Part shown: one piece after another, positions 3,135-58,427 of the stretch
How positions within the stretch are numbered: the first letter of the stretch is position 1
Layout: each line of letters begins with the position of its first letter
From: an uncultured Gammaproteobacteria bacterium
GTDB lineage: Bacteria; Patescibacteriota; Patescibacteriia; Patescibacteriales; GWC2-42-12
Direction: 5' to 3'
Length of the DNA stretch: 64,000 bases
Assembly: GCA_964467155.1 (NCBI GenBank)
Contig: CAYXNZ010000004.1
Location: forward strand, 533 to 64,532
Notes under the pieces: generated by a model
Seen by the model: only the letters and a program-made list of their open reading frames with translations
Told to the model about the DNA's origin: nothing
The model's database searches: none
Translations under genes and position numbers: made by a program

Positions 3135-4646
3135 ATGAAAAGAGCAAGAATATTATTGCTTAGCCTTTTGTTAATTGCAATTGGCGTATCGGCAGTTGAT
3201 TTATCAGCTCAAGCTGGTATTCTTGATTTTTTTTATAAAACTAAAGATGTATTAACTGTAGCGGGCAATCAAGTTTTATTAAATGGTAATAAAATATTAT
3301 TGAGTGGCGTAGCAGTTGGTGATCCACATTCCAGATTAACTAATGATCAAAGAACAATTGACGATTACGAAGTGATAAGCAAGGAGTGGAAAGCTAACGT
3401 TGTCCGATTATCTGTCCATCCTGGCGTTTGGCGTCGAGATGAAAAAAGAGGCAAAAGTATGCTGGAGGAAGAGGTTAAGGCCGCACGTGATAACGGTCTT
3501 TTTGTTATTATTGATTGGCATGTGATCGGTAATCCAAACGGTTGGTATAAGCCTTGTCCTTGGGGTGAATACCATTACTATTCTTATAGTAGTAATTTCA
3601 ATATTGCTAAAGATTTTTGGAAGTATATCGCTCTAGAATATCGTAGTGATCGTGGTGTTATGTTTGAATTATGGAATGAGCCAGCTGATGACAAAGATCA
3701 GAAGTGGGAATACATACAAGATTACATGCAAAGATTAACAGATATTATAAAAAGTAATGGTGCAGAAAATATTATTATTGGTCCAGGTGTGTGGTGGACA
3801 TACGACTTAAGGGGAGTAAAGAATAAACCACTCTCAGGAGACAATATTGCTTATGCTTGGCATAATTACCCAACCAATAATAGTCGTTATATATCTTGGG
3901 ATTTGGCGATGGATGATTTATATAAATATTATCCAATCTTTGTAACAGAGTGGGGCTACACAGAAGAACCAGGGAATATGTATTATTCAAATGTAGATAA
4001 TTATAGTGAAAATTTAAAAAAATATTTATTAGAAAAAGGATTGCATTTTACTGCCTGGTGTTGGCATGCCACCTGGAAGCCAACAATGTTTAAAGCAAAT
4101 TGGGTAGATTTGAATGAGTATGGTGGATTTGTAAAAAAATTATTAGCTGATATTGAGAATGGCTGGGCATATTTAAATTTGGAAGAGACTAAACCGCTTG
4201 ATTGTGATACGCAAAAGCGGATAACAGATTTTATAAAAAATGGAGTTGATAAAAATTCTATTTATATCGGAGAAGGGGAGAGAAAAGCAGTGGTCTTTTC
4301 TTTTCAGCAAGCATTCGGTCGATTACCTGAGAGTGATACTGATCATGAAGATATAAAACTTATTGCTAATGGACATTGGCCAAGTCAAAGAAGTACCGTT
4401 GCTGAAGCAAAGGCACAAAATACTTTTCGTTATATTTATAAGCGAGAATCAAACATGGATTACCCTTGTGATAATGCTGCTATAACAGTCATGGCTTATG
4501 GTTTGAGGCAAAGAGCTGAGAACCGTAATTTAGAAAGCGAAGAACGAGGTTTAATAATTTTTAAAAGTTTATATAATCATTTGCCAGATTCAACTGAAGA
4601 TTGGAATATTTTACAAGCGATAACTTATTCAGGTGCATCAAGGTAG
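3135..4646 (+). CDS. Secreted glycoside hydrolase family 5 (cellulase-family) protein with an extra ~130-aa C-terminal domain
   Basis: Signal peptide present. GH5 acid/base motif 'FELWNEP' and nucleophile-region 'FVTEWG' are both present. The C-terminal domain is shared with the 1337-aa protein at 54414-58427. Confidence 0.75.
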   Translation: MKRARILLLSLLLIAIGVSAVDLSAQAGILDFFYKTKDVLTVAGNQVLLNGNKILLSGVAVGDPHSRLTNDQRTIDDYEVISKEWKANVVRLSVHPGVWRRDEKRGKSMLEEEVKAARDNGLFVIIDWHVIGNPNGWYKPCPWGEYHYYSYSSNFNIAKDFWKYIALEYRSDRGVMFELWNEPADDKDQKWEYIQDYMQRLTDIIKSNGAENIIIGPGVWWTYDLRGVKNKPLSGDNIAYAWHNYPTNNSRYISWDLAMDDLYKYYPIFVTEWGYTEEPGNMYYSNVDNYSENLKKYLLEKGLHFTAWCWHATWKPTMFKANWVDLNEYGGFVKKLLADIENGWAYLNLEETKPLDCDTQKRITDFIKNGVDKNSIYIGEGERKAVVFSFQQAFGRLPESDTDHEDIKLIANGHWPSQRSTVAEAKAQNTFRYIYKRESNMDYPCDNAAITVMAYGLRQRAENRNLESEERGLIIFKSLYNHLPDSTEDWNILQAITYSGASR

Positions 4647-4705
4647 CGGCGAATCAAAAATATTAAATTTTTTTGTTATTCTCAACTTAGTTGGGATTTT
4701 TTTAG

Positions 4706-4730
4706 ATTCCCGCGAAAGCGGGAATGACAG
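4706..4730. repeat. G+C-rich palindrome ATTCCCGC-GAAA-GCGGGAAT followed by GACAG
   Basis: Perfect 8-bp stem read directly from the sequence. The reverse complement starts CTGTCATTC, the same 9-mer that begins the element inside mnmA at 52070. Confidence 0.6.
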
Positions 4731-4803: not shown

Positions 4804-4820
4804 TGTGCTGAAAAGTCTTT

Positions 4821-5831
4821 TTACTTGGTGCAGTCCGGCACTGGTGCCGTACTGATAAGTTCTTCGGACCTCTGCTGGTCCGGAAGCCTGAGGGTTTTGT
4901 CGGCCTGGCTCTTTGTAGCCGGATCGACTGATCCTCTTTGGACAAGGTTATATTGGCATTGAAATGCTTTTACGTCCTTGTCTAACCTGGCTTTAAGGGT
5001 AGCGGAATATTTCTCATTAATTTCTTCCGCTTTCATAAGAGTGGCCTCTGACTGGTTGCCCCAAAGGTTATCCTTCTTGATTCCCCAGATATTCTGGAAT
5101 TCATAGAAGGTTTCATAACCCAGAGCTTTGATCCTCGGTAAAGCTTCAGCGCGCCGTAACATCCAGAGTGTTTTTGATCCTGGAATGCCGTCGGCTTTTA
5201 AGCCTTCGGCAATCTGGAACTCAACTATGGAATTGAAGCCGAGAATCTTGATCCTGGCTTCTACATCTTCGTAGAGATTCTTTTTTTCCAGAATCACCAC
5301 TCTTTTTTTAAGAGAGGTTGATTGCTTAACTGAAGCAGGTTCAACTGCGGCGACCGACCTGTCTGTTGACGACGTTTCTTTCAGTGCCGGAGCGAGAGTG
5401 GATTTGATTTCCTTTGCCGGTGCCGGTGTGTTGACCTTAGGGGCGGAACCGTAATCTGTCAGACTCCACTCGTGGCGATTGAAATTATCATTATTCATAT
5501 CGTCCCTAATGATCGGCTGACGGGCATTAAGCCAATCAAGCATCGCCATGAGGAGCGCCGCAGGAATATCATCTCTGGTGGCTCCGTTATAGCACATTAT
5601 TTGAGGTTCCCCAAAGTACCACTTCGTGGCAAAAAAGCCATTTTCGGGTTTTGTGCTATCAGAAAAATGCTCATTGAAGACTACGTCGCCCACAGTAATC
5701 TTCTTTGATGCGGTTGATATCTTCTCGTCAAAAGCATTATCTGAACGGATATTCGGTGTCTGGTTTTGACACCCCATTGTCATTATTGCAAAAATCGCAA
5801 TGACAACAACAACAAACATATTTCTCTTCAT
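4821..5831 (-). CDS. Lipoprotein of unknown function in a G+C-rich island
   Basis: GGAGGAGGA lies directly upstream of the ATG at 5831. 'IMTMGC' fits a lipobox. 'GLKADGIPGSKT' resembles a peptidoglycan-binding-domain motif. The track start at 5876 is probably too long. Confidence 0.6.
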   Translation of the reverse strand: MKRNMFVVVVIAIFAIMTMGCQNQTPNIRSDNAFDEKISTASKKITVGDVVFNEHFSDSTKPENGFFATKWYFGEPQIMCYNGATRDDIPAALLMAMLDWLNARQPIIRDDMNNDNFNRHEWSLTDYGSAPKVNTPAPAKEIKSTLAPALKETSSTDRSVAAVEPASVKQSTSLKKRVVILEKKNLYEDVEARIKILGFNSIVEFQIAEGLKADGIPGSKTLWMLRRAEALPRIKALGYETFYEFQNIWGIKKDNLWGNQSEATLMKAEEINEKYSATLKARLDKDVKAFQCQYNLVQRGSVDPATKSQADKTLRLPDQQRSEELISTAPVPDCTK

Positions 5832-6100
5832 GTCATCCTCCTCCCCGTCTTTTGGACGGTCTGTTTTCCGTCTCATAGACGGTTCTGTCGTTATGTCTTG
5901 ATCTCTTAGTTACTCACCATGAGTAGATTAGAGAATTTTTTTAATGTTCAAATAACATTTAAAATTAGCATAATTGTTAAAGTTTGTCAATATATAGTTA
6001 AAAAACAGCTAATATTAGAAAAAATTATCAATCATTGATTTTGATTGACTTTTTTGTTGTCTCATGCTAAGATTTAGCATAAACTTTTTAAATTATTGTT

Positions 6101-10247: not shown

Positions 10248-12314
10248 ATGATTAGGCGGAGAAAACAAGAAAGAAAACAACAACAGTTTAAAAGTAGTCG
10301 CGTTAATCTAGTAATGGCGATTATTTTTTTATTAGGCGGATGTGTATTATATCGCCTGTTTAGCTTACAGGTTTTACAAAATGATTTATATGTTAGTTTG
10401 GCTTCGGGACAGCATGAAGCGACAAATATTTTAGCGCCACAGAGAGGTAAAATATTTTTTTCTCAAAATGATGGTGATTTATATCCCGTCGCTACCAATA
10501 AAGATTTTGCTCAAGTTTATGTAGTGCCTAAAGATGTAAAATTGGGAGATAAGATGGTCGAACAATTTTATTTACTTTTTAAAGAAAAACAAGTAATTGA
10601 AGAAGTCGATGAATTATTGGAAGAGCAAGACGAGGAAAGATTAAAAAAAGAACTTGATTATGTCGATAATTTAGATATAGATAATAAAGAAGAAAGACGT
10701 CAACAAGTAATAAACGAACATAACTCCTTAATGGTTGATAAAACTTATTTAGAATTAAAAAATTTAAAAAGAGAAAAAGAAATAGAAGATAGAAAGAATG
10801 AAATAATAGAGGGATATTTAAAAAAAATAAATAAGCCGAATGATCCATATGAGCCAATCCAGAAAAAAGTTGACAAAGAAGTTTTAAAGAAGCTCTATAT
10901 ATCTCTTAGTGATAATTTCAATTATTCGATAAAAAATTTATTAGTTGAAGATGGTGCTATTTATTATCAAGACGCAAATAATGATTTAACAAAAGTAGAG
11001 GTAGATGGTTTAGGATTTAGACTTGAATCTTTCCGTTTTTATCCAGAGGGAAATATTGGGTCAAATTCAATTGGTTTTGTTGGATTAAGTGATAATACAC
11101 CAATCGGACATTATGGTCTCGAAGGTTTTTTTAATGAAGAGCTATCTGGTAAATATGGAAGAGTATCAGCTGATAAAAGTGCTAGAGGAGAAATGATTAT
11201 TATTAATGATCGTGAATACACCAAACCACAAGATGGATCGGATTTAATTCTTACGATTGATCGATCAATTCAATACGCGGCCTGTCAAAAGTTAAATGAA
11301 TTTGCTTCAACGCACGGTGCAGATGGCGGGAGTGTTATTATAATGAAACCTGAAACAGGAGAAATAATTGCCATGTGTTCATATCCAGACTATGACCCCA
11401 ATATTTATCAAGAAGTTGAAGACATAAAGGTGTACAATAACCCAGCCATATTTGATCAATATGAACCGGGATCTGTTTTTAAAACTATTACTATGGCAGC
11501 CGCCTTGGATCAGGAAAAAGTTACTCCAGAAACAATTTATAATGATGAAGGTCAAATTATGGTTGAGGGTTGGCATAAGCCGATTAAAAATTCTGATTTT
11601 GATTCACATGGTGGTTATGGTGAAGTGAATATGAATTCGGTATTAGAAAATTCTTTAAATACTGGTGCAATTTTTGCAATGGAGCAAATCGGATCATCAA
11701 TATTTGCTGATTATGTAAAAAAGTTTGGTTTTGGCGAAAAGACGGGGATTGAGATGGAAACAGAAAACTCTGGCGATATAGAATATTTAAAAAAGAAAAA
11801 AGTGCAAGATATTTATGCCGCTACCGCTTCATTTGGTCAAGGCTTGACGACTACACCGTTGCAAATGGCAGTAGCCTACAATACTATTGCTAATGGTGGT
11901 GTTATGATGAAGCCATTTATTGTTAAAAAAATAATAGATAATGAAGGTAAAGAAGAAATTATTAAACCAAGAATTGTTGGAAGAGTAATCTCTGAAAAAG
12001 CAGCAACAATTTTATCAGGTATGTTAGTTAATGTTGTTGAAGGTGGACATGCAAAATTGGCTGGTATTGATGGTTATTTTATTGGAGGCAAGACGGGCAC
12101 TGCCCAGGTCGCCTCAGCTAGCTCACGGGGGTACGGTAGCAAGACCATCCATACTTTCGTTGGTTTCGGTCCAGTTGATGATCCTAAATTTGTTATGTTG
12201 GTAAAATTAGACGACCCAAGGGATATGGTTTACGCCGCTTCTTCAGCTGCACCGCTATTTGGCACAATTTCTGAATTTATGCTAAATTATTGGCAAGTGC
12301 CTAAGATAAGATAA
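10248..12314 (+). CDS. ftsI: Penicillin-binding protein 2/FtsI-type transpeptidase
   Basis: SxxK 'SVFK', SxN 'SLN' and 'KTGT' motifs, plus an N-terminal TM helix. The N-domain carries a K/E-rich insert. Confidence 0.85.
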   Translation: MIRRRKQERKQQQFKSSRVNLVMAIIFLLGGCVLYRLFSLQVLQNDLYVSLASGQHEATNILAPQRGKIFFSQNDGDLYPVATNKDFAQVYVVPKDVKLGDKMVEQFYLLFKEKQVIEEVDELLEEQDEERLKKELDYVDNLDIDNKEERRQQVINEHNSLMVDKTYLELKNLKREKEIEDRKNEIIEGYLKKINKPNDPYEPIQKKVDKEVLKKLYISLSDNFNYSIKNLLVEDGAIYYQDANNDLTKVEVDGLGFRLESFRFYPEGNIGSNSIGFVGLSDNTPIGHYGLEGFFNEELSGKYGRVSADKSARGEMIIINDREYTKPQDGSDLILTIDRSIQYAACQKLNEFASTHGADGGSVIIMKPETGEIIAMCSYPDYDPNIYQEVEDIKVYNNPAIFDQYEPGSVFKTITMAAALDQEKVTPETIYNDEGQIMVEGWHKPIKNSDFDSHGGYGEVNMNSVLENSLNTGAIFAMEQIGSSIFADYVKKFGFGEKTGIEMETENSGDIEYLKKKKVQDIYAATASFGQGLTTTPLQMAVAYNTIANGGVMMKPFIVKKIIDNEGKEEIIKPRIVGRVISEKAATILSGMLVNVVEGGHAKLAGIDGYFIGGKTGTAQVASASSRGYGSKTIHTFVGFGPVDDPKFVMLVKLDDPRDMVYAASSAAPLFGTISEFMLNYWQVPKIR

Positions 12315-16782: not shown

Positions 16783-18177
16783 TTAATTTTCATCAGTGAT
16801 ATTTGCTTCACTAATTGATTCTCCAATGTCATAAAGATATAGTACCTTAGATGGAACTTCAATGACATTGTTCCAGGCGTAACCTAATTGTTCAAAGATT
16901 TTACCTGAGATAATTGGATGTTTTTTGCCATCGGCAATTACATAAACAGCTGGATGGCTAGAAGATTTTAGGAGTTCACCGTCTTCAAATGACACAGGAT
17001 CAATTGTTACGTATTTTTCAAGTTCATCTGGCGATACTGGAACTATTTTTTTATTTTTAAACTTTGTAGTTAAAAATACTTTATCAAGTATCGGAGATTT
17101 CTCGCCTTCCATTACCCAATAAACTCCACCAGTTTGATTATTTTGTAATAAAGCACCTGTTGGATAGGTGGAAGTAGCAGTAATTGGTATTCCGTCTGAA
17201 TAAGTATTAATGTCTTCCCAGCTGGCATCAAGAACTTCTTCAGGATTAAAGCCCATTAGTCGAAAAGCTTCACTGGAGGCAAAACCTCGTTTTTTGTCAT
17301 CAACTAAGAGAAAAATCGTTCCACGAGGAGATCTAACGAGAGAGTATTGAGGAAATTTAATTGATGCACCTGTTTCGTATTTATCTAAATCAGAACGATT
17401 AACTTGAATAATTCTATCTGCATTGAATCTGGTAGTTAAAGCACCTCTTGTTTCAAATGGTCGTTTTTTATTATCTTGAATAAGCCAAACGCCAGGTTCG
17501 TCGTAAGCTTGCAACAAGGAACCGTTAGGGTAATTTTTTGTAAAATATCTCTGCCAGATTTTGAAAAAATTATAGTTACCATTGTAAACATGTGGAGTGT
17601 AATTGTACAGAGCAGCGGTTGCTTGGTTAGCTGGTGTAACAGTCATCAACTCATTACTGATGGTGCCATAAGGATTTGTAAAAGTATAGGTATTGCCTGA
17701 GCGATAAGTGTAGAGCTGTGGATTATCCATGTAGTCTCTAAATTGTAATGAAGCGCTATTGACTTGTTTCCAAAGACCTTGCCAGCGCGGGTTGCATGAT
17801 CCGCCGTCAGGACAGCCGTAGCCAGTGGCCCAGTCGAGCTGTCTTTGTGTCGGTGATTCTTCTTCAATTAAACTTTGTTCTTTTTGTAACAAAACTAATA
17901 AAAATTTAGGGTTAACTTTATTGGCAATAGCTCGATCATAAATTACTTCTGGTGCAATCCATATTTTTCCATCTGCGTCAGTGCAAGCATAATTTAGTAA
18001 ATAACTATTTTTATTAGCAAGAAATTCTTTTATATCCTCTAAATCCATGGATGTGTAATCAAGTACTTCTTCGTCGCTAATAATAAAGTTTGGATTAAAG
18101 GTGGAAGCATGGGCAGTAATTGAGCTTAAAGTAAAGAAAAACAATAGAAATACAAATACCGATATAATTTTTTTCAT
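16783..18177 (-). CDS. Secreted hypothetical protein; possible cell-wall hydrolase-like N-domain
   Basis: Signal peptide present. The 'LLVLLQKEQSL' block resembles glucosaminidase-type proteins, but the match is weak. Confidence 0.45.
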   Translation of the reverse strand: MKKIISVFVFLLFFFTLSSITAHASTFNPNFIISDEEVLDYTSMDLEDIKEFLANKNSYLLNYACTDADGKIWIAPEVIYDRAIANKVNPKFLLVLLQKEQSLIEEESPTQRQLDWATGYGCPDGGSCNPRWQGLWKQVNSASLQFRDYMDNPQLYTYRSGNTYTFTNPYGTISNELMTVTPANQATAALYNYTPHVYNGNYNFFKIWQRYFTKNYPNGSLLQAYDEPGVWLIQDNKKRPFETRGALTTRFNADRIIQVNRSDLDKYETGASIKFPQYSLVRSPRGTIFLLVDDKKRGFASSEAFRLMGFNPEEVLDASWEDINTYSDGIPITATSTYPTGALLQNNQTGGVYWVMEGEKSPILDKVFLTTKFKNKKIVPVSPDELEKYVTIDPVSFEDGELLKSSSHPAVYVIADGKKHPIISGKIFEQLGYAWNNVIEVPSKVLYLYDIGESISEANITDEN

Positions 18178-49701: not shown

Positions 49702-51606
49702 TTACTGTGTTAACTCGGCTTTTACTCGCCTAATACCGGCGCTTGAGCTTTCTTCTTTTTTTATTTTAAACTTACCGAGAGTGCTTGTGTTATCAATATG
49801 AGGACCACCACAAATTTCTTTACTAAAAATATCATCACCTTCACCAACTGTATAAACTTTAACCTTATCGCCATATTTAGATTCAAATACGCCCATCGCA
49901 CCAGCTTTTTTTGCTTCATCCAAACTCATCTCTTCGCATTTAACAGACATTTTTTTCTCTATAGCCTCGTTTACTATTTTTTCAACTTCTTGTTTTTGTT
50001 CATCTGTCATTTTTTCATTATGAGAAAAATCAAAGCGTAACCTTTCAGCTGTGATATTACTACCTTTCTGAACAACGTGATCGCCTAAAACTTTTCTTAA
50101 AGCGGCAAGTAATAGGTGTGCAGCAGTATGTAGTTTGGTTGTTTCTTCTCCGGCATCAGCTAAACCACCTTTAAATTTTCCAGCGCTAGCAGTACGTGAA
50201 AGTTCTTGATGTTTTTTCAATTCCTTGTTAAATCCTTTTAAATCTATTGTTACTCCCCTTTCTTTGGCCAATTCTAGACTCATTTCTATTGGGAAACCAA
50301 ATGTCTGATAAAGATTAAATAAATCATCGCCACTTAATGCATATTCTATTGTTCCAGATTTTTTAGAGAAAGGGCTAAATTTTGGCTTCATTTTTTCAAA
50401 TTCTTTTAATCCTCTTTCAAGTGTTTTTGTAAATTTAATTTCTTCTTTATTTAATTCATCAATAATCTTGTTAATATTTTTTTGGAGTTCAGGATAAGTC
50501 ATTGCATAATCGTGTGCGACTAGTTTGGCGATTTCTTTGGTCCAGGGTTTATCCTGTGGTATCCCGAGCAATCTTCCATAACGAATTGCTCGTCTAATTA
50601 AACGTCTAACAATATAGCCTTGGTCAGTATTGGAAGGCGTCACACCTTTGTCGTCTCCCATAATAAAGGTAGCTGCTTTTAAATGATCGGTAATGATTCT
50701 AATGGCTTTTTTTGTTTCAGTATCTGCATCAATATAGCTTTTCCCAGACAAATTTTCTATTTTATGGAATAAATTATAGAAAGTGTCGTTATCAAATGCA
50801 TCTCTTTTGCCATTAAGGACAGCTATCGTTCGCTCAAGTCCCATACCTGTATCTACATTTTTTTGAGCTAATTTTTCAAATTTACCAGCTTGAGTTTTGT
50901 TGTATTCCATAAACACATCATTCCATATCTCCATAACTCTAAAATTATCAACTTCTTCGTCAAAACTGCCTTTAAGCGGTTCTTTGTCAGGGTTTACATC
51001 ATAAAACATTTCTGAGCAAGGTCCGCAAGGTCCAGTTTCTCCAGCTGGACCCCACCAGTTATCTTTAGCCGGCAAAGGAAATATTCGATAGTTTTTATTT
51101 CCACCTATTTTTTCGTTATAAGGACAAATCTCAGCTTTTATATTTACTTTTTTGAATTGCTCTTGCCATATTTCTATTGACTCATTATCTATCGGACAAT
51201 TTTCGTCACCCATAAAAACAGTTATATATAGTTTTTCAGGATTAAGATTGAGCCATTCAGGACTAGTCATAAATTCCCAACTCCATTCAATCGCCTCACG
51301 TTTAAAATAATCACCAAGTGACCAGTTGCCCAACATTTCAAAAAAAGTCAGATGCCTGTTGTCACCAACATCATCAATGTCTACAGTTCTAATGCATTTT
51401 TGTGAATCTGCGATTCTTTTGCCAGACGGATGTTTTTGTCCCACCAAATAAGGAACCAATGGTTGCATGCCAGCAGTATTAAATAAAACAGTTGGATCAT
51501 TTTCTGGAATCAAGGAAGCGCTAGGTATTATTGCATGACCTTTGGACTTAAAAAAATCCAGATACATCTGGCGCAATCTTTTGGAACTTATTGTTTTATC
51601 TGTCAT
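49702..51606 (-). CDS. alaS: Alanyl-tRNA synthetase, short form ending after the editing domain
   Basis: 'FFKSKGH', 'HTAAHLL' and 'CGGPH' motifs. At 634 aa it has no C-Ala domain. Confidence 0.9.
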   Translation of the reverse strand: MTDKTISSKRLRQMYLDFFKSKGHAIIPSASLIPENDPTVLFNTAGMQPLVPYLVGQKHPSGKRIADSQKCIRTVDIDDVGDNRHLTFFEMLGNWSLGDYFKREAIEWSWEFMTSPEWLNLNPEKLYITVFMGDENCPIDNESIEIWQEQFKKVNIKAEICPYNEKIGGNKNYRIFPLPAKDNWWGPAGETGPCGPCSEMFYDVNPDKEPLKGSFDEEVDNFRVMEIWNDVFMEYNKTQAGKFEKLAQKNVDTGMGLERTIAVLNGKRDAFDNDTFYNLFHKIENLSGKSYIDADTETKKAIRIITDHLKAATFIMGDDKGVTPSNTDQGYIVRRLIRRAIRYGRLLGIPQDKPWTKEIAKLVAHDYAMTYPELQKNINKIIDELNKEEIKFTKTLERGLKEFEKMKPKFSPFSKKSGTIEYALSGDDLFNLYQTFGFPIEMSLELAKERGVTIDLKGFNKELKKHQELSRTASAGKFKGGLADAGEETTKLHTAAHLLLAALRKVLGDHVVQKGSNITAERLRFDFSHNEKMTDEQKQEVEKIVNEAIEKKMSVKCEEMSLDEAKKAGAMGVFESKYGDKVKVYTVGEGDDIFSKEICGGPHIDNTSTLGKFKIKKEESSSAGIRRVKAELTQ

Positions 51607-51674: not shown

Positions 51675-52883
51675 TTAAATAATTATTCCTCCACCAAGCA
51701 ATTCGTCTTTTTTGTAAAAAACAACACTTTGTCCAGGAGTTATAGCTCTTTGTGCTTTTTCGAATTTTACGCTTAGCTTGTCTTTTGTTTGATTAATCGT
51801 ACACTTATTCGCTTTGTGACCGTAACGTATCTTAGCCGAGCAATTAAAGGGCATTTTGGGAGTTTTACCACCTATCCAATTAATGTTTTTACAATTTAAT
51901 TGATTGCTAAAGAGTGCTTTGTGATTTACTTCGTTTGTGACGTAGAGAGTGTTGGTTTTGTAATCAGTCTTAACAACATAATAAGGTCCAGTTCCACCAA
52001 GCTCAATCCCCTTTCTTTGACCAATAGTATAGAGAGGTAAACCTTGGTGCGTGCCGATAATTTTATTCGCTGTCATTCTGGAAGGATCCGCCGACTGGCG
52101 GAGACTGATAGAATCTTTTCTTTTTTTAGAAGTGCTGTGAGATTCTACCCGCTTCGTCGGAGCTTCAGCTAGCCTCGCTGAGTCTAAGCGGGCGAGGCGA
52201 GTCGCTTCGTTGGCACTTCGCTCCAGAATGACAATTGGACCAGTTTTTAATTTTATATTTTTTTTCAAAAAATTATTATGATCTCCTTCCAAAAAACAGA
52301 TATCTTGACTCTCAGATTTTTCACAAGGCAATTTATGCTCTCTGGCTATTTTTTTTATCTCAGCCTTTGTATATCTGGCTAGTGGAAAAATTATTTTAGA
52401 TAATTGAGCCTGAGTTAAATTATACAAAAAATAACTTTGATCCTTACTCTTATCTTTTGCCTGAAATAATTTATATTTTGTAGTTTGGAATTTGTAATTT
52501 GTAATTTCTCGCTGCAAGCGAGTATAGTGTCCAGTTGCCAAGTAATTAGCTCCTAGTATTTTTATATATTTTAATAATTCCCCAAACTTTATTGTTTTGT
52601 TGCATTCTACACACGGATTAGGTGTCAGTCCCCTACTGTAGGCAGAGCAAAAATATTGTATAACATTTTTATTAAATTTTTGATAGGCGTTTATAGAATA
52701 AAATTTAACTTTTAATTTTTGGCATATTTTACGAGCGGATACTTCAGAAGCTGATTGTTTTTCCTCAAGACGTAAAAATAAACCAATAACTTCATAGCCT
52801 TGATTTTTGAGTGTTAGCAAGGCAACAGCGGAATCTACCCCACCAGAGATTGCAACTATTATTTTTTCTCTTTTTTTAGCCAT
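51675..52883 (-). CDS. mnmA: tRNA 2-thiouridine synthase MnmA carrying a ~54-aa in-frame insertion
   Basis: PP-loop 'VAISGGVDSAV' and 'THQGLPLYTIGQRKG'. A G+C-rich insert lies between 'TGPIV' and 'NKIIGTHQGL'. Confidence 0.85.
   Translation of the reverse strand: MAKKREKIIVAISGGVDSAVALLTLKNQGYEVIGLFLRLEEKQSASEVSARKICQKLKVKFYSINAYQKFNKNVIQYFCSAYSRGLTPNPCVECNKTIKFGELLKYIKILGANYLATGHYTRLQREITNYKFQTTKYKLFQAKDKSKDQSYFLYNLTQAQLSKIIFPLARYTKAEIKKIAREHKLPCEKSESQDICFLEGDHNNFLKKNIKLKTGPIVILERSANEATRLARLDSARLAEAPTKRVESHSTSKKRKDSISLRQSADPSRMTANKIIGTHQGLPLYTIGQRKGIELGGTGPYYVVKTDYKTNTLYVTNEVNHKALFSNQLNCKNINWIGGKTPKMPFNCSAKIRYGHKANKCTINQTKDKLSVKFEKAQRAITPGQSVVFYKKDELLGGGIII
52071..52233. mobile_element. 163-bp MITE-like palindromic element inside mnmA
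   Basis: 12-bp perfect terminal inverted repeats: TGTCATTCTGGA at 52071-52082 and TCCAGAATGACA at 52222-52233. Internal hairpins are present. A hand count of 52141-52200 gives 37/60 G+C. Confidence 0.55.
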
Positions 52884-57400: not shown

Positions 57401-58427
57401 TGGTTATCGTTACGCTTTTAGCTACATTAATTGAACTATCAATTTCGTATGTCCCAGCCGCAACATTAATCGTATCTCCTGGACTTGCTGCAGTAACGGC
57501 TTCCTGAATACAATCATGAGTTGTTGATTGAGTTGTATTTTGAACATTGTATTCACGAGTTTTAGTCGAGTCGAGCGTATCATCGATGTACCACGGCGAA
57601 TATTCGACATTCGCGCTGACTTGATCGCCGCCCGAACACGAAGCCGGACCGGTGATCGCGCCCCAGTAATTGTTTGCGGCATTAATGGTTACAGAATCAT
57701 CATTAGTTACACCTGCGCTATTTCCATAAATTTTATTATAATTAATTATAGTTCCAGTTACATCCCCAGCATGTTTCTCTATTCCAGTTCCACAACCAGA
57801 GATATCATTATATTGAACAGATGTCCCTATATTAGTTTCTCTGATGTTTACTCCCGCATATATTGTATTGGAAATTTCATTGTAACTTACAATACTATCA
57901 TCAGCAGAATTATCTAACCATATCCCATCATTCATTGTATTATTACCTGCAATAACATTATTACTTATATTTACCCTTGGACCTCCCCAGTATTGTATGG
58001 CATTCTTGTCCGTAATACTCGAAATATGGTTATAGGAAATTTTGTTATCACTCCCTGTATGATTCATCCACTGAATAGCATGTTGCCCTGTCACAGAAAT
58101 ATAATTATGAGTAATTACAGCATTTGAAGCACCATCACTCGCAATTGCTTCCCACATAGTATTATAGAATGTATTATATTCAACCAAAGCATTATCTGCT
58201 CCTGGATAGATATAAACACCGTGACCGGAATATCCATTAGCAGAAGAACCATCAGGAACGGCACCAGTATTCTGAATTATGTTATTTTTAATAACTACAT
58301 TATTAGCTATATCAGAAATTATTAATCTCCTGCCAGTATTTGCTTCCGAGCTACCAATCATAAATCCATCAATAGTTATATTAGAAGTATACAAAGAATA
58401 CGGAACTTTAAGATCGCTTGTTCTCAC
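54414..58427 (-). CDS. Giant right-handed beta-helix (pectate-lyase/NosD-like repeat) surface protein, main segment; it shares its C-terminal domain with the GH5 protein
   Basis: Recurrent 'N.I..N.I' beta-helix repeats over ~1,000 aa. The track start is a GTG just after a frameshift point. Confidence 0.7.
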   Translation of the reverse strand: MRTSDLKVPYSLYTSNITIDGFMIGSSEANTGRRLIISDIANNVVIKNNIIQNTGAVPDGSSANGYSGHGVYIYPGADNALVEYNTFYNTMWEAIASDGASNAVITHNYISVTGQHAIQWMNHTGSDNKISYNHISSITDKNAIQYWGGPRVNISNNVIAGNNTMNDGIWLDNSADDSIVSYNEISNTIYAGVNIRETNIGTSVQYNDISGCGTGIEKHAGDVTGTIINYNKIYGNSAGVTNDDSVTINAANNYWGAITGPASCSGGDQVSANVEYSPWYIDDTLDSTKTREYNVQNTTQSTTHDCIQEAVTAASPGDTINVAAGTYEIDSSINVAKSVTITTDASATIISATLDTPVFNITADNVTIENFNITTSLAPFSQAGSVTGSETSGALILINASNVTISGNTIYADETLLGEMKTWTTRGITLQAGSATIKGNTIYGVRNGIVVRPGNSASITDNVIFDTKGGIMHYTSSQDDANTHTTTGNSWTSTVSGLISHNEWDIVWNTAYYAPDYQQSVIALSNSNNGAYILDRRTVDASYPTDNVKNAAACAALAGNRSHVFVDANSSIIAAHPAKGNFNEKFSTIALGIDAVVLGGTVYVAAGIYDENPTVSGKQLNFVGAVDGDGHPLPTIQGTLSIDLPGADDNWRIENINFLADTDSGTALLLLKNVNGVTVKNSTFDGNGRFMEGSSVNGVNFTSCSNVIIENSIFKNGLYVAINGYVNHLTVRDSTIKNVKSGINLQGGGGNLVVENTDISVIAQTTENDTYGVRFASIGSGSGVDMTITGGSISVNKNDLVADAATYHSAIIIRSGATGILKANTIAINGDVVNLSAVQLDAKNNYWGDENGPGELISDYITYDPWFINTEKTTLSNSTVVPDNSGNATVTNDAPQVVITNQTQATTVTISSGTTNPKIDVSLFISEGTGTLPEINITSANANNATVAIPASTKVTSADDTWNGIIAAPTVTTVTLPKTLGQTKTSSIAIEVGFTGAKLSFDKAVRLLLPGQTGKRVGYVRTGTEFTEITNTCTADDQATVDAYLTGSKEDCKIDNGSDLVIWTKHFTKFATYTQTTTSFGGVTLPQQSQTTPIKETVTTPTKPEEQVEVLGVEPIKEIVTTPTKPEEQVEVLGVELNYRATQLDKIINEAGFAYKGDVSLILNNIKGIRNIANELAGSNKYTLSLVKNSGLTLNQAYSMTNFIVYGTETTAKLGAGERAGVMNSYKTSFGKLPTTQTEWEDVIKIANGRWPSEANQPAENKAKEEFKKVYQRDANMDNANDNAAITMVAYGLRPDIRNLDSERTAIQAFKTIFGCNPVSTTTWDVVRAIAYSGSIK
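55021..55152. repeat. 66-bp tandem duplication (2 copies, 3 mismatches) encoding PIKE(T/I)VTTPTKPEEQVEVLGVE
   Basis: Direct comparison of 55021-55086 with 55087-55152. Confidence 0.9.

What the first reader, a model, noticed from the sequence alone, without database searches (positions are those of the whole stretch)
52071..52233. Palindromic MITE-like element inserted in frame in the essential-type gene mnmA
A 163-bp segment is bounded by perfect 12-bp inverted repeats (TGTCATTCTGGA / TCCAGAATGACA). It is strongly G+C-rich (37/60 in 52141-52200) and full of internal hairpins such as CCGCC-GACT-GGCGG and CCCGCTT...AAGCGGG. It sits where MnmA orthologues have only a few residues, between 'PG.I' and 'G.H.GL'. 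The reading frame runs through it, adding ~54 aa (ILERSANEATRLARLDSARLAEAPTKRVESHSTSKKRKDSISLRQSADPSRMTA). In-frame palindromic elements that add peptide segments to proteins are documented for Rickettsia palindromic elements. Its terminus CTGTCATTC also occurs at the palindrome at 4706-4730, which hints at a repeat family.
Basis: partly seen in the sequence, partly recalled or inferred. Interest (0 to 1): 0.65.

Follow-up and report, generated by a model that had tools for sequence, protein, structure and literature searches.

The report
Selfish palindromic repeat translated inside mnmA
A 163-bp selfish palindromic DNA repeat, of the same broad class as the Rickettsia palindromic elements, sits in frame in a tRNA-modification gene of an uncultured Patescibacteria-type bacterium, adds about 51 amino acids to a surface loop, and probably arrived by recombination with a foreign copy of the gene.

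Summary
mnmA (51675-52883, minus strand) carries a 163-bp, 53% G+C segment (52071-52233) bounded by perfect 12-bp inverted repeats, and only the frame in use is open.

It is not a domain, an intron or a misassembly.
- The closest orthologues (90.7% nucleotide identity) lack it.
- Three independent assemblies reproduce it exactly.
- Related copies lie in many other genes and intergenic spacers of uncultured bacteria.

By its anatomy it is an inverted dimer of TGTC-tagged hairpin modules. That places it in or near the published "CGTC-tagged REP" superfamily, which includes Neisseria dRS3 and Rickettsia RPE-4 and RPE-6. No target duplication and no transposase were found.

All six mnmA copies studied occupy the same nucleotide position and share internal loop sequence, so they descend from one insertion. 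One copy has been flipped in place.

In the window lineage, the 24 bases next to the element match the distant filled alleles (18-20/24) and not the close relative (10/24). This argues for import by gene conversion.

AlphaFold2 predicts the insert as a helix plus a disordered excursion from a beta-hairpin.

This is a new member of a known kind, of moderate interest.

The parts
51675..52883 (-). mnmA (tRNA 2-thiouridine(34) synthase), 402 aa. This is the host gene.
   Evidence: The ORF list gives this gene. It matches Pfam PF03054, PF20259 and PF20258 and solved MnmA structures. The gene order CAP-mnmA-alaS-infA-rpsM is shared with its relatives.
52071..52233 (-). The inserted element: a 163-bp inverted dimer of TGTC-tagged REP-like modules. 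In frame it encodes residues V218-T271.
   Evidence: It is absent from P0001 and P0002. It is 52.8% G+C against 32% for the gene. It shares homologous modules with elements in L002, L003, L104, L136, L137 and many other loci.
52222..52233 (-). Terminal arm at the gene-sense 5' end, TGTCATTCTGGA. It carries the TGTC tag and the start of the stem, and encodes (I)VILE.
   Evidence: It is a perfect 12-bp inverted repeat of the other arm. The codons GTC ATT CTG GAG are invariant in all six filled mnmA alleles, while the neighbouring G-P-I codons vary at third positions.
52071..52082 (-). Terminal arm at the gene-sense 3' end, TCCAGAATGACA. It encodes SRMT.
   Evidence: establish the repeat. The codons TCC AGA ATG ACA are invariant in all six filled alleles.
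52204..52221 (-). Conserved core of the left module, gene-sense GCGAAGTGCCAACGAAGC. It holds two CGAAG motifs.
   Evidence: It aligns with GAGCGAAG...CGAAGCGATAG in other copies. In those copies, variable small hairpins sit between the two CGAAG motifs.
52148..52192 (-). G+C-rich hairpin specific to this copy (CCCGCTT...AAGCGGG). It sits at the variable position of the left module.
   Evidence: It is present only in the window copy. It has no match in any fetched locus. Other copies carry different hairpins at the same place.
52106..52148 (-). Central hairpin. The arms are (T)GATAGAATCT and AGATTCTA(C), around an A/T-rich loop (52117-52139).
   Evidence: The arms are conserved family-wide. The loop resembles that of the P0039, P0121 and P0122 mnmA copies and of no other copy.
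52087..52102 (-). Small hairpin TCCGCC-GACT-GGCGGA in the right module.
   Evidence: The same hairpin occurs in both L002 copies and in ten metagenome copies. P0039 and P0124 carry different but still self-complementary sequences at this position.
52044..52067 (-). A 24-nt patch of host gene directly downstream of the element, encoding NKIIGTHQ. It is of foreign type and is the presumed co-conversion tract.
   Evidence: The patch matches P0001 at 10/24 and P0002 at 11/24, but P0026, P0039 and P0124 at 18-20/24. The next 90 nt match P0001 at 87/90 and the distant clade at only 58-62/90. It is the lowest-identity 27-nt window of the whole gene.
4704..4730 (-). Solitary related repeat: TGTC tag, 8-bp stem ATTCCCGC/GCGGGAAT and a 4-nt loop. 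It lies between convergent genes.
   Evidence: The sequence is, and it is the only match in the window. It fits the published CGTC-1 REP description and its peptides, of the VIPAKAGI and DSRFRGND type.

Best explanation
The segment is a non-autonomous palindromic repeat. It consists of two REP-like hairpin modules in inverted orientation. Each module has an unpaired TGTC tag on the outside and a stem that starts ATTC...GAAT.

This anatomy places it in or next to the published CGTC-tagged REP superfamily. That superfamily contains Neisseria dRS3 and Rickettsia RPE-4 and RPE-6.

**Shown**
- The element is an insertion into mnmA.
- Related elements occur in many genes and spacers.
- All six mnmA copies studied share one insertion point and related interiors.

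**Inferred**
1. One ancestral insertion landed in the beta-hairpin that opens the central domain of a Patescibacteria MnmA.
2. It survived because that loop tolerates extra residues and because one frame of the element is open. The element is therefore transcribed and translated with the gene, as a helix plus a disordered surface excursion.
3. The filled site then moved between divergent mnmA alleles by homologous recombination. It entered the window lineage together with 24 nt of downstream gene. In another lineage it was flipped in place by recombination between its own inverted arms.
4. Gene conversion with other genomic copies keeps the arms identical at the nucleotide level.

The enzyme that first moved the repeat is unknown.
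For: **It is an insertion**
- P0001 and P0002 have the empty site.
- The canonical loop GPIKTLDNKIIGEH occurs in 128 of 228 relatives.

**It is real**
- L138, L139 and L140 are 100% identical to the window. They come from two ENA assemblies and one JGI metagenome.

**It belongs to a family**
- At least 120 loci carry the 17-mer. Of 128 occurrences, 48 have a complete partner arm.
- Ten more copies come from metagenomes.
- Genome GCA_030650415.1 holds a second copy in frame in tgt, with its 3' 45 nt identical to the mnmA copy of that genome.
- In-frame copies occur in Tgt, GatB, a ClpB-type ATPase, RecG, RNase HII, a GT4 glycosyltransferase, DUF763 and others.

**The ends are separate hairpins**
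- The two variable positions within each end module are Watson-Crick in 35 of 36 elements.
- The long-range partners are mismatched in 26 of 35.

**Link to CGTC REPs**
- The tag, the A-T stem start, inverted dimers, frequent intragenic copies and the lack of a transposase all match the published description.
- The window also holds a CGTC-1-type singleton at 4704-4730.
- An Acidobacteriaceae variant is a perfect single REP: CGTC-ATTCTGGAGC-GAA-GCTCCAGAAT.

**Translation**
- Only one of six frames is open, and it is the frame in use.
- Older copies changed length by in-frame steps, and the flipped copy is also open.

**Structure**
- AlphaFold2 gives mean pLDDT 90. VIL lies in strand 215-219. 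There is a helix at 224-239, pLDDT below 50 at 247-270, and a strand at 274-279.

**Single origin and transfer**
- All six copies share the junction CCNAT|(T/C)GTCATTCTGGAG, and the central loop sequence is shared.
- P0124 is the P0026 element inverted in place.
- The 24-nt mosaic patch points to import from a distant allele.
- P0002 shares the P0001 state there, so the window state is derived.
- With the loop masked, the window clusters with the empty alleles, far from the other filled ones.
Against: - No transcript or peptide data were available, so translation is inferred.
- No target-site duplication and no empty site for the original insertion were found. The K-T-L codons are missing rather than displaced, which a simple insertion does not explain.
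- The module stems (5 bp, an internal loop, 2 bp and a GAA loop) do not fit the published 8-9 bp stem and 4-5 nt loop. Family membership is therefore by resemblance only.
- The donor allele is not in hand.
  - The codon directly after the element (GCG) matches the close relative and not the distant alleles.
  - "NKIIG" is also the general consensus, so 18-20/24 against about 65% background is only modestly significant.
- The NJ tree within the distant clade is poorly resolved.
- The covariation could reflect two subfamilies by descent rather than repeated compensation.
- Several source records labelled Gammaproteobacteria look like Patescibacteria, so the taxonomic breadth is uncertain.
Confidence: 0.75

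Rival explanations
1. The element was inserted independently and site-specifically. Its mobilising enzyme recognises a sequence in this mnmA loop, so the same site was hit separately in the window lineage and in the distant clade.
For: - The junction is identical in two clades about 54% identical in protein.
- Many copies are preceded by AATT or ATT.
- The right half of the window copy is as close to non-mnmA copies such as L133 as to the mnmA copies.
Against: - The A/T-rich central loop, which differs freely between loci, is shared between the window copy and the P0039, P0121 and P0122 mnmA copies.
- The adjacent 24 nt of host gene switch to the distant-clade type.
- The same K-T-L replacement appears in all copies.
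- No common target motif or duplication is seen at other host sites.
Confidence: 0.12
2. The element is removed from expression. It would be an intron-like or ribosome-bypassed RNA structure, whose 12-14 bp terminal stem brings the flanks together so that the mature protein lacks the insert.
For: - The RNA fold is strong, with a closing stem (z = -3.7).
- Junction sequences are conserved while helices vary.
- The arms are conserved at the nucleotide level.
Against: - No Rfam family matches, even at E <= 10 locally or E <= 0.1 over eight loci that carry elements.
- The element occurs in both orientations in genes, and once flipped in place with the frame still open.
- Exact removal of 163 nt would shift the frame. 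Removal of 162 nt would delete a beta-strand.
- Only the frame in use is open.
- The local hairpins, not the long closing stem, carry the covariation.
Confidence: 0.04
3. The insert is a functional protein module. Under this view the basic patch STSKKRKDS and a helix were recruited for tRNA binding and are kept by selection on the protein.
For: - The insert has persisted in at least six alleles.
- Part of it is predicted helical at pLDDT 70-80.
- The enzyme binds tRNA.
Against: - The peptide interior is not conserved: 90-162 nt, different hairpins, and one copy inverted.
- What is conserved is DNA, including synonymous sites of the arms.
- The nearest relatives do without it.
- The same DNA gives three different peptides in other hosts.
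- About 45% of related MnmAs carry unrelated inserts in this loop.
Confidence: 0.06
4. The insert is an assembly artefact: a chimeric contig that joins reads from two populations.
For: The host gene is mosaic at the insert. The source is a metagenome-type sequence.
Against: - Three other assemblies from different samples and centres are 100% identical over 1.8-5.1 kb across the insert.
- Both flanks are of the same P0001-like type.
Confidence: 0.01

Closest known systems
CGTC-tagged REPs (Di Nocera, De Gregorio and Rocco 2013, PMC3733652), including Neisseria dRS3 (CGTC-1) and Rickettsia conorii RPE-6 and RPE-4 (CGTC-1 and CGTC-4)
   Same: - An unpaired terminal tag. The paper states that CGTC is often changed to TGTC.
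- A stem that starts with A-T pairs.
- Units mostly paired in inverted orientation, with variable, sometimes structured spacers.
- Frequent in-frame copies inside housekeeping genes, including tRNA-modification genes.
- No dedicated transposase.

The window's own singleton at 4704-4730 fits CGTC-1 exactly.
   Different: - The modules of the mnmA element have a 5-bp stem, an internal loop and a GC-GAA-GC tip. The published families have 8-9 bp stems and 4-5 nt loops.
- The tail is CTN rather than CCA.
- Extra small hairpins are nested at two fixed positions.
- The hosts are Patescibacteria and other uncultured phyla that the 2013 survey did not cover.
- I did not compare sequences with the published consensus figures, which are not held as text.
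Rickettsia palindromic element RPE-1 (Ogata et al. 2000, as summarised in PMC10969869)
   Same: - About 100-150 bp, palindromic and without an ORF of its own.
- Inserted in frame in unrelated conserved genes.
- Judged compatible with the protein fold.
   Different: - RPE-1 is confined to the genus and is unrelated in sequence as far as I know. This was not tested here.
- RPE-1 copies encode a conserved peptide. The present family is read in three frames and both orientations.
REPINs mobilised by RAYT tyrosine transposases (GTAG-tagged REP doublets). This entry rests on my own knowledge and on PMC3733652.
   Same: Both have two inverted REP hairpins that can fold separately or as one long hairpin, and the doublet is the unit that spreads.
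   Different: - The tag is TGTC/CGTC, not GTAG.
- No RAYT gene lies next to any copy in about 0.97 Mb of fetched loci. The single RAYT-like ORF (L048) is flanked by other repeats.
- REPINs are extragenic.
Classical bacterial MITEs (IS-derived, as reviewed in PMC10969869)
   Same: The element is small, has terminal inverted repeats, has no ORF, and is multicopy in some genomes.
   Different: - No target-site duplication was found.
- No IS with matching ends was found.
- The ends behave as independent hairpins.
Co-conversion of flanking exon sequence during intron or intein homing (analogy only, from my own knowledge)
   Same: A short tract of donor-type host sequence travels with the insert into a previously empty allele.
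   Different: No endonuclease or splicing activity is encoded. Ordinary homologous recombination after DNA uptake is sufficient to explain the transfer.

Membership tests
CGTC-tagged REP superfamily (PMC3733652) | An unpaired terminal tetranucleotide CGTC, with TGTC or CCTC accepted as variants | tested here: met
   TGTC lies at both outer ends in the window. P0039 has CGTC, as do the Acidobacteriaceae singletons.
CGTC-tagged REP superfamily (PMC3733652) | A stem that begins with complementary A-T residues at the first and second positions | tested here: met
   The pairs ATTCT...AGAAT and ATCCT...AGGAT hold within each module, and the variable position covaries in 35 of 36 elements.
CGTC-tagged REP superfamily (PMC3733652) | A stem of 8-9 bp and a loop of 4-5 nt | tested here: not met
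   The modules of the mnmA element have 5 bp, a 3x3 internal loop, 2 bp and a GAA loop. The Acidobacteriaceae variant has a 10-bp stem and a 3-nt loop. The singleton at 4704-4730 does meet the criterion, with 8 bp and 4 nt.
CGTC-tagged REP superfamily (PMC3733652) | A 3-nt unpaired tail, consensus CCA | tested here: inconclusive
   The modules end AGAAT-CTN or -CCN. The singleton ends CTA.
CGTC-tagged REP superfamily (PMC3733652) | Units mostly in inverted dimers; intragenic in-frame copies; no dedicated transposase | tested here: met
   Dimers are seen. In-frame copies in ten or more gene families are seen. No associated transposase was found.
Classical MITE | Terminal inverted repeats, small size and no coding capacity | tested here: met
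   The inverted repeat is a perfect 12 bp and the element is 163 bp.
Classical MITE | Target-site duplication flanking the element | tested here: not met
   No direct repeat flanks any of about 35 complete copies examined. In mnmA, 9-10 nt of host sequence are replaced rather than duplicated.
Classical MITE | A parent IS or transposase with the same ends | tested here: inconclusive
   None was found in the fetched loci. The DDE gene in L002 has unrelated ends. Whole genomes were not searched.
REPIN/RAYT system | A GTAG tag and an associated RAYT (Y1 transposase) gene flanked by the repeats | tested here: not met
   The tag is TGTC. A motif scan of 0.97 Mb found one RAYT-like ORF, and it is flanked by different repeats. 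The scan is crude and does not cover whole genomes.
Rickettsia palindromic elements (RPE-1 type) | In-frame insertion in conserved genes at sites compatible with the fold | tested here: met
Rickettsia palindromic elements (RPE-1 type) | Sequence similarity to an RPE consensus | not tested
   No RPE consensus sequence was available to the tools. The link to RPE-4 and RPE-6 rests on the shared CGTC-REP anatomy reported.
Self-splicing intron or self-cleaving ribozyme | A match to a known catalytic RNA family | tested here: not met
   Rfam 15 gave nothing at gathering score, nothing relevant at E <= 10 locally, and nothing at E <= 0.1 in eight loci that carry elements.

The most novel reading that the evidence does not exclude
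The filled mnmA site may be a self-propagating cassette. Under this reading, a TGTC-tagged REP dimer spreads between divergent alleles of one housekeeping gene by gene conversion, dragging a short host tract with it. This would be homing-like spread without any encoded endonuclease.

The strongly conserved junction sequences of the family (GAGCGAAG, CGATAGAATC, CTCCAGRATGAC), with freely varying nested hairpins, would then mark the recognition site of a still unidentified trans-acting nuclease or recombinase. That enzyme would be shared by Patescibacteria, Chloroflexota, Fibrobacter, Bacteroidaceae, Clostridia and even a methanogen-related archaeon.
Probability: 0.15. Interest if true: 0.65.

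Novelty: new member of a known kind. Interest (0 to 1): 0.4.

Why it matters
It extends the "selfish DNA inside protein-coding genes" phenomenon to the small, streamlined genomes of Patescibacteria. The phenomenon is best known from Rickettsia RPEs and from REPs in Proteobacteria.

It links a repeat family that neither Rfam nor the searched literature matched to the published CGTC-REP class.

It documents how such an insert evolves once it is fixed in a gene:
- the arms stay conserved at the nucleotide level;
- the interior turns over;
- the element can invert in place;
- it can transfer between alleles together with a co-converted flank.

There is also a practical point. About 45% of Patescibacteria MnmA sequences carry some repeat-derived peptide in this one loop. 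These segments inflate protein lengths, split domain matches and can mislead annotation and phylogeny.

Tried and rejected
- **Rfam.** I searched at gathering and at permissive thresholds, on the window and on eight other loci. Nothing was found.
- **Literature.** Full-text searches for the element's DNA strings and for its typical peptides gave no relevant hit. The useful paper came from a keyword search instead.
- **Other copies in the window.** blastn and Hamming scans found none beyond the 4704-4730 singleton.
- **Viral contigs, phage records and plasmid records.** No match in any.
- **Peptide-profile searches, meant to count host proteins.**
  - The word-indexed search scored only 20 candidates.
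  - The exhaustive search returned 5 hits, and the only true one was a fragment of the same protein.
  - The peptide is too short and too variable for this approach.
- **Transposase search.** Nothing was found in L023 or L028. The DDE gene in L002 is unrelated. A RAYT motif scan found one unrelated gene.
- **Target-site duplication and target consensus.** None was found, apart from a weak AATT preference on the 5' side.
- **Host-derived left arm.** I considered that the left arm might be native GPIVIL-D codons. It is unsupported, because none of the 128 canonical loops reads VIL.
- **Copy-specific 45-nt hairpin as a nested known element.** It has no match in the fetched loci.
- **Errors.** One fuzzy-regex script timed out.
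Full report
**1. The observation**

The window is 32% G+C. The gene content of the window and of its close relatives is that of a Patescibacteria-type genome. The best MnmA hits are Patescibacteria/Parcubacteria MAGs, and the relatives share the order CAP-domain gene, mnmA, alaS, infA, rpsM, rpsK, rpsD, rpoA.

The ORF 51675..52883 on the minus strand is MnmA. It matches PF03054, PF20259 and PF20258, and its best solved relatives are the MnmA structures 9hln and 2hma.

- 163 bp with perfect 12-bp inverted ends, found nowhere else in the window.
- 52.8% G+C against 32.2% for the rest of the gene, with 37 of 60 in 52141-52200.
- Both named hairpins are present.
- The fold is more stable than all 200 shuffles, z = -3.7.

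The frame runs through the segment and gives the quoted 54 residues (V218-T271). The other five frames all contain stops.

**2. It is an insertion, and it is real**

The two nearest orthologues have the short canonical loop. They are P0001 (351 aa, 90.7% nucleotide identity over the gene) and P0002 (343 aa). In 128 of 228 related MnmAs the stretch from HN.FL to GLPLYT is 34 residues, typically GPIKTLDNKIIGEHQ.

In the window the loop reads GPI-VIL[ERS...SRMT]-ANKIIGTHQ. The net gain is therefore 51 residues. The element-encoded V-I-L replaces the usual K-T/D-L.

The exact 402-aa protein is on four other contigs. Three fetched ones, from two ENA assemblies and one JGI metagenome, are 100% identical to the window over 1.8-5.1 kb. 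This excludes misassembly.

**3. It belongs to a large repeat family**

More distant MnmAs (about 54% identity) carry a related insert at the same nucleotide position. The ends are the same and the interiors differ.

The 17-mer GTCATTCTGGAGCGAAG reached the 120-locus limit of a scan of one genome per species. Many matches lie at contig ends, which is typical of multicopy repeats.

Of 128 occurrences, 48 have a recognisable partner arm 49-161 nt away. A metagenome scan for the right-hand hairpin gave ten more copies.

The common plan is:

(T/C)GTCATTCTGGAGCGAAG - [optional small hairpin] - CGATAGAATC - variable loop - GATYCTATCGGTC - [optional small hairpin] - CTCCAGRATGAC(A)

Most copies are intergenic. 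At least a dozen lie in long ORFs, in both orientations and three frames. The hosts include Tgt (twice), GatB, a ClpB-type ATPase, RecG (two copies in one gene), RNase HII, a GT4 glycosyltransferase, DUF763, a 6-phosphogluconolactonase-like protein and a TMEM260-like protein.

In genome GCA_030650415.1 the mnmA copy has a sibling 3.8 kb away. The sibling is in frame in tgt, and its last 45 nt are identical to the mnmA copy.

The labelled hosts span Patescibacteria, Chloroflexota, Acidobacteriaceae, Fibrobacter, Bacteroidaceae, Clostridia, Planctomycetes and one Methanomethylophilaceae archaeon. Some labels are doubtful. The "Gammaproteobacteria" contig L104 carries a Patescibacteria-type mnmA.

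No copy occurs in viral contigs, phage records or plasmid records.

**4. Anatomy and the closest known class**

Two positions vary in each end module. Within a module they are Watson-Crick in 35 of 36 distinct elements (T-A or C-G). Across the element the supposed long-range partners are mismatched in 26 of 35.

Each end is therefore a hairpin of its own, and the element is an inverted pair of them. The caveat is that this pattern could also reflect two subfamilies by descent.

No copy shows a target-site duplication. No transposase accompanies the copies. The one RAYT-like ORF in 0.97 Mb of loci is flanked by other repeats. No Rfam family matches.

This anatomy fits the "CGTC-tagged REPs" of Di Nocera et al. 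2013 (PMC3733652). That paper describes:
- an unpaired CGTC tag, often changed to TGTC;
- stems that start with A-T;
- a short tail;
- mostly inverted dimers with variable, sometimes structured spacers;
- frequent in-frame copies in housekeeping genes, including tRNA-modification genes;
- no dedicated transposase.

The same paper equates CGTC-1 with Neisseria dRS3 and Rickettsia RPE-6, and CGTC-4 with RPE-4.

It is a textbook CGTC-1 unit. Its possible translations are the published VIPAKAGI, CHSRESGNP and DSRFRGND peptides.

The mnmA element shares the tag and the ATTC...GAAT stem base. Its stem geometry differs from the four published families. An Acidobacteriaceae variant of the same 17-mer is a perfect single REP, CGTC-ATTCTGGAGC-GAA-GCTCCAGAAT.

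I therefore file the element as working like a CGTC-REP dimer and as a probable diverged member. One defining feature, stem and loop size, is not met.

**5. History of the mnmA copy**

Six filled alleles were compared at the DNA level: the window, P0026, P0039, P0121, P0122 and P0124.

- All have the junction CCNAT|(T/C)GTCATTCTGGAG and end in TCCAGAATGACA.
- These 24 nt show no synonymous change, while the adjoining Gly-Pro-Ile codons vary at third positions.
- The interiors range from 90 to 162 nt.
- The A/T-rich central loop differs freely between loci. Yet the window copy and the P0039, P0121 and P0122 copies share it.
- The P0124 element is the P0026 element inverted in place, and its frame is still open.

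The mnmA copies therefore descend from one insertion.

With the loop masked, the window protein clusters with the empty P0001 and P0002. It lies far from the other filled alleles, which sit scattered among empty ones in a poorly resolved clade.

| Region compared with the window | P0001 | P0002 | P0026, P0039, P0124 |
|---|---|---|---|
| 24 nt just downstream of the element | 10/24 | 11/24 | 18-20/24 |
| next 90 nt | 87/90 | 81/90 | 58-62/90 |

The patch is the least conserved 27-nt window of the whole gene in the comparison with P0001.

Since P0002 shares the P0001 state, the window state is derived. The simplest reading is that the filled site entered this lineage by recombination with a foreign mnmA allele. 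The import replaced about 37 nt of resident sequence, including the K-D-L codons. This also explains why the window holds no other copy of the element.

The weak points are these:
- The donor is unknown.
- The first codon after the element matches P0001.
- NKIIG is also the general consensus.

**6. Effect on the protein**

An AlphaFold2 model built on 110 sequences has mean pLDDT 90.
- Residues 215-219 (GPIVI) form the first strand of the central domain.
- Residues 224-239 form a helix of moderate confidence.
- Residues 247-270 are below pLDDT 50.
- Residues 274-279 (KIIGTH) form the return strand.

The insert is thus predicted as an excursion from a beta-hairpin that leaves the core intact. 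I could not test its position relative to bound tRNA.

The loop is a hot spot. About 45% of the 228 relatives carry some insert there, mostly peptides typical of other small palindromes.

**7. Verdict**

The element is a selfish palindromic repeat of the REP/RPE kind, carried in frame in mnmA. That is a known phenomenon.

What is new is the host group, the particular family, and the evidence for in-place inversion and allele-to-allele transfer. Interest is moderate.

Noticed in passing
window 4704-4730: A solitary TGTC-tagged hairpin (AGATTCCCGCGAAAGCGGGAATGACAG) lies between the convergent genes 3135..4646(+) and 4821..5876(-). It fits the published CGTC-1 REP, the class of Neisseria dRS3 and Rickettsia RPE-6.
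   Followed up: yes
MnmA homologues P0003-P0238: The loop after GPI is an insertion hot spot. 100 of 228 Patescibacteria MnmAs carry inserts of 1-46 aa there. Most look like translated small palindromes, for example TPLIKGGRG, QPPFERGARG and PLSRDNRSGRGV.
   Followed up: partly
MnmA homologues P0003, P0009, P0019, P0032, P0056, P0080: The same protein has further insertion hot spots.
- An N-terminal segment SPRKSLRDSAGQAG is preceded by a duplicated VAMS motif.
- A long insert after RLRREI contains the CGTC-1 peptide MPSCHSRESGNPG.
- Further inserts lie in the C-terminal barrel.
   Followed up: no
L002 6847-6945 (GCA_030650415.1): A second copy of the element lies in frame in tgt (407 aa), 3.8 kb from the mnmA copy. 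Its 3' 45 nt are identical to the mnmA copy, which suggests recent copying or gene conversion within the genome.
   Followed up: yes
L011 and L112: Another Tgt carries two adjacent or nested family copies. A RecG carries two copies at different sites.
   Followed up: partly
L006, L017, L021, L038, L068, L074, L079, L081, L091, L098, L116 (Dehalococcoidia MAG C20_metabat.bin.39): A 108-nt copy of the element is nested inside a larger repeat of roughly 200 bp with its own inverted ends (GGAGCTTGTCTCA...TGAGACAAGCTCC). This composite breaks many contigs. GTAG-type REPs (TGTAGGGGCGACC...) lie next to it.
   Followed up: partly
L104 (CAZLKB010000002.1) and other 'binchicken' TPA assemblies: Contigs labelled "uncultured Gammaproteobacteria" carry a Patescibacteria-type mnmA (P0124) and A/T-rich flanks. 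The taxonomic labels of these records may be wrong, which would narrow the apparent host range of the repeat.
   Followed up: no
window 49702-51606 and relatives L001, L135, L136: The alaS gene next to mnmA encodes only 634 aa (619, 613 and 593 aa in the relatives). This is much shorter than the roughly 870 aa that I recall as usual for bacterial AlaRS.
   Followed up: no
window 4814-4951, 5322-5595, 12056-12184, 17744-17869, 57564-57702: Other G+C-rich islands (55-64% over 80 nt) lie inside ORFs of this 32% G+C window. They show no sequence similarity to the element, and their nature was not examined.
   Followed up: no
L048 2675-3166: A RAYT-like tyrosine-transposase ORF (HVH...YLHRNPVKRGLV) is itself interrupted by a repeat-like peptide. 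It is flanked by GGTGCCCCAGGTTCG-type repeats, not by the element studied here.
   Followed up: partly
family copies in L019, L027, L046, L076, L112, L114, L126, L134: Small hairpins of unrelated sequence sit at one fixed point of the left module. They are bracketed by a repeated CGAAG, as if nested insertions duplicated 5 nt, or as if the GCGAAGC tip expands by slippage.
   Followed up: no
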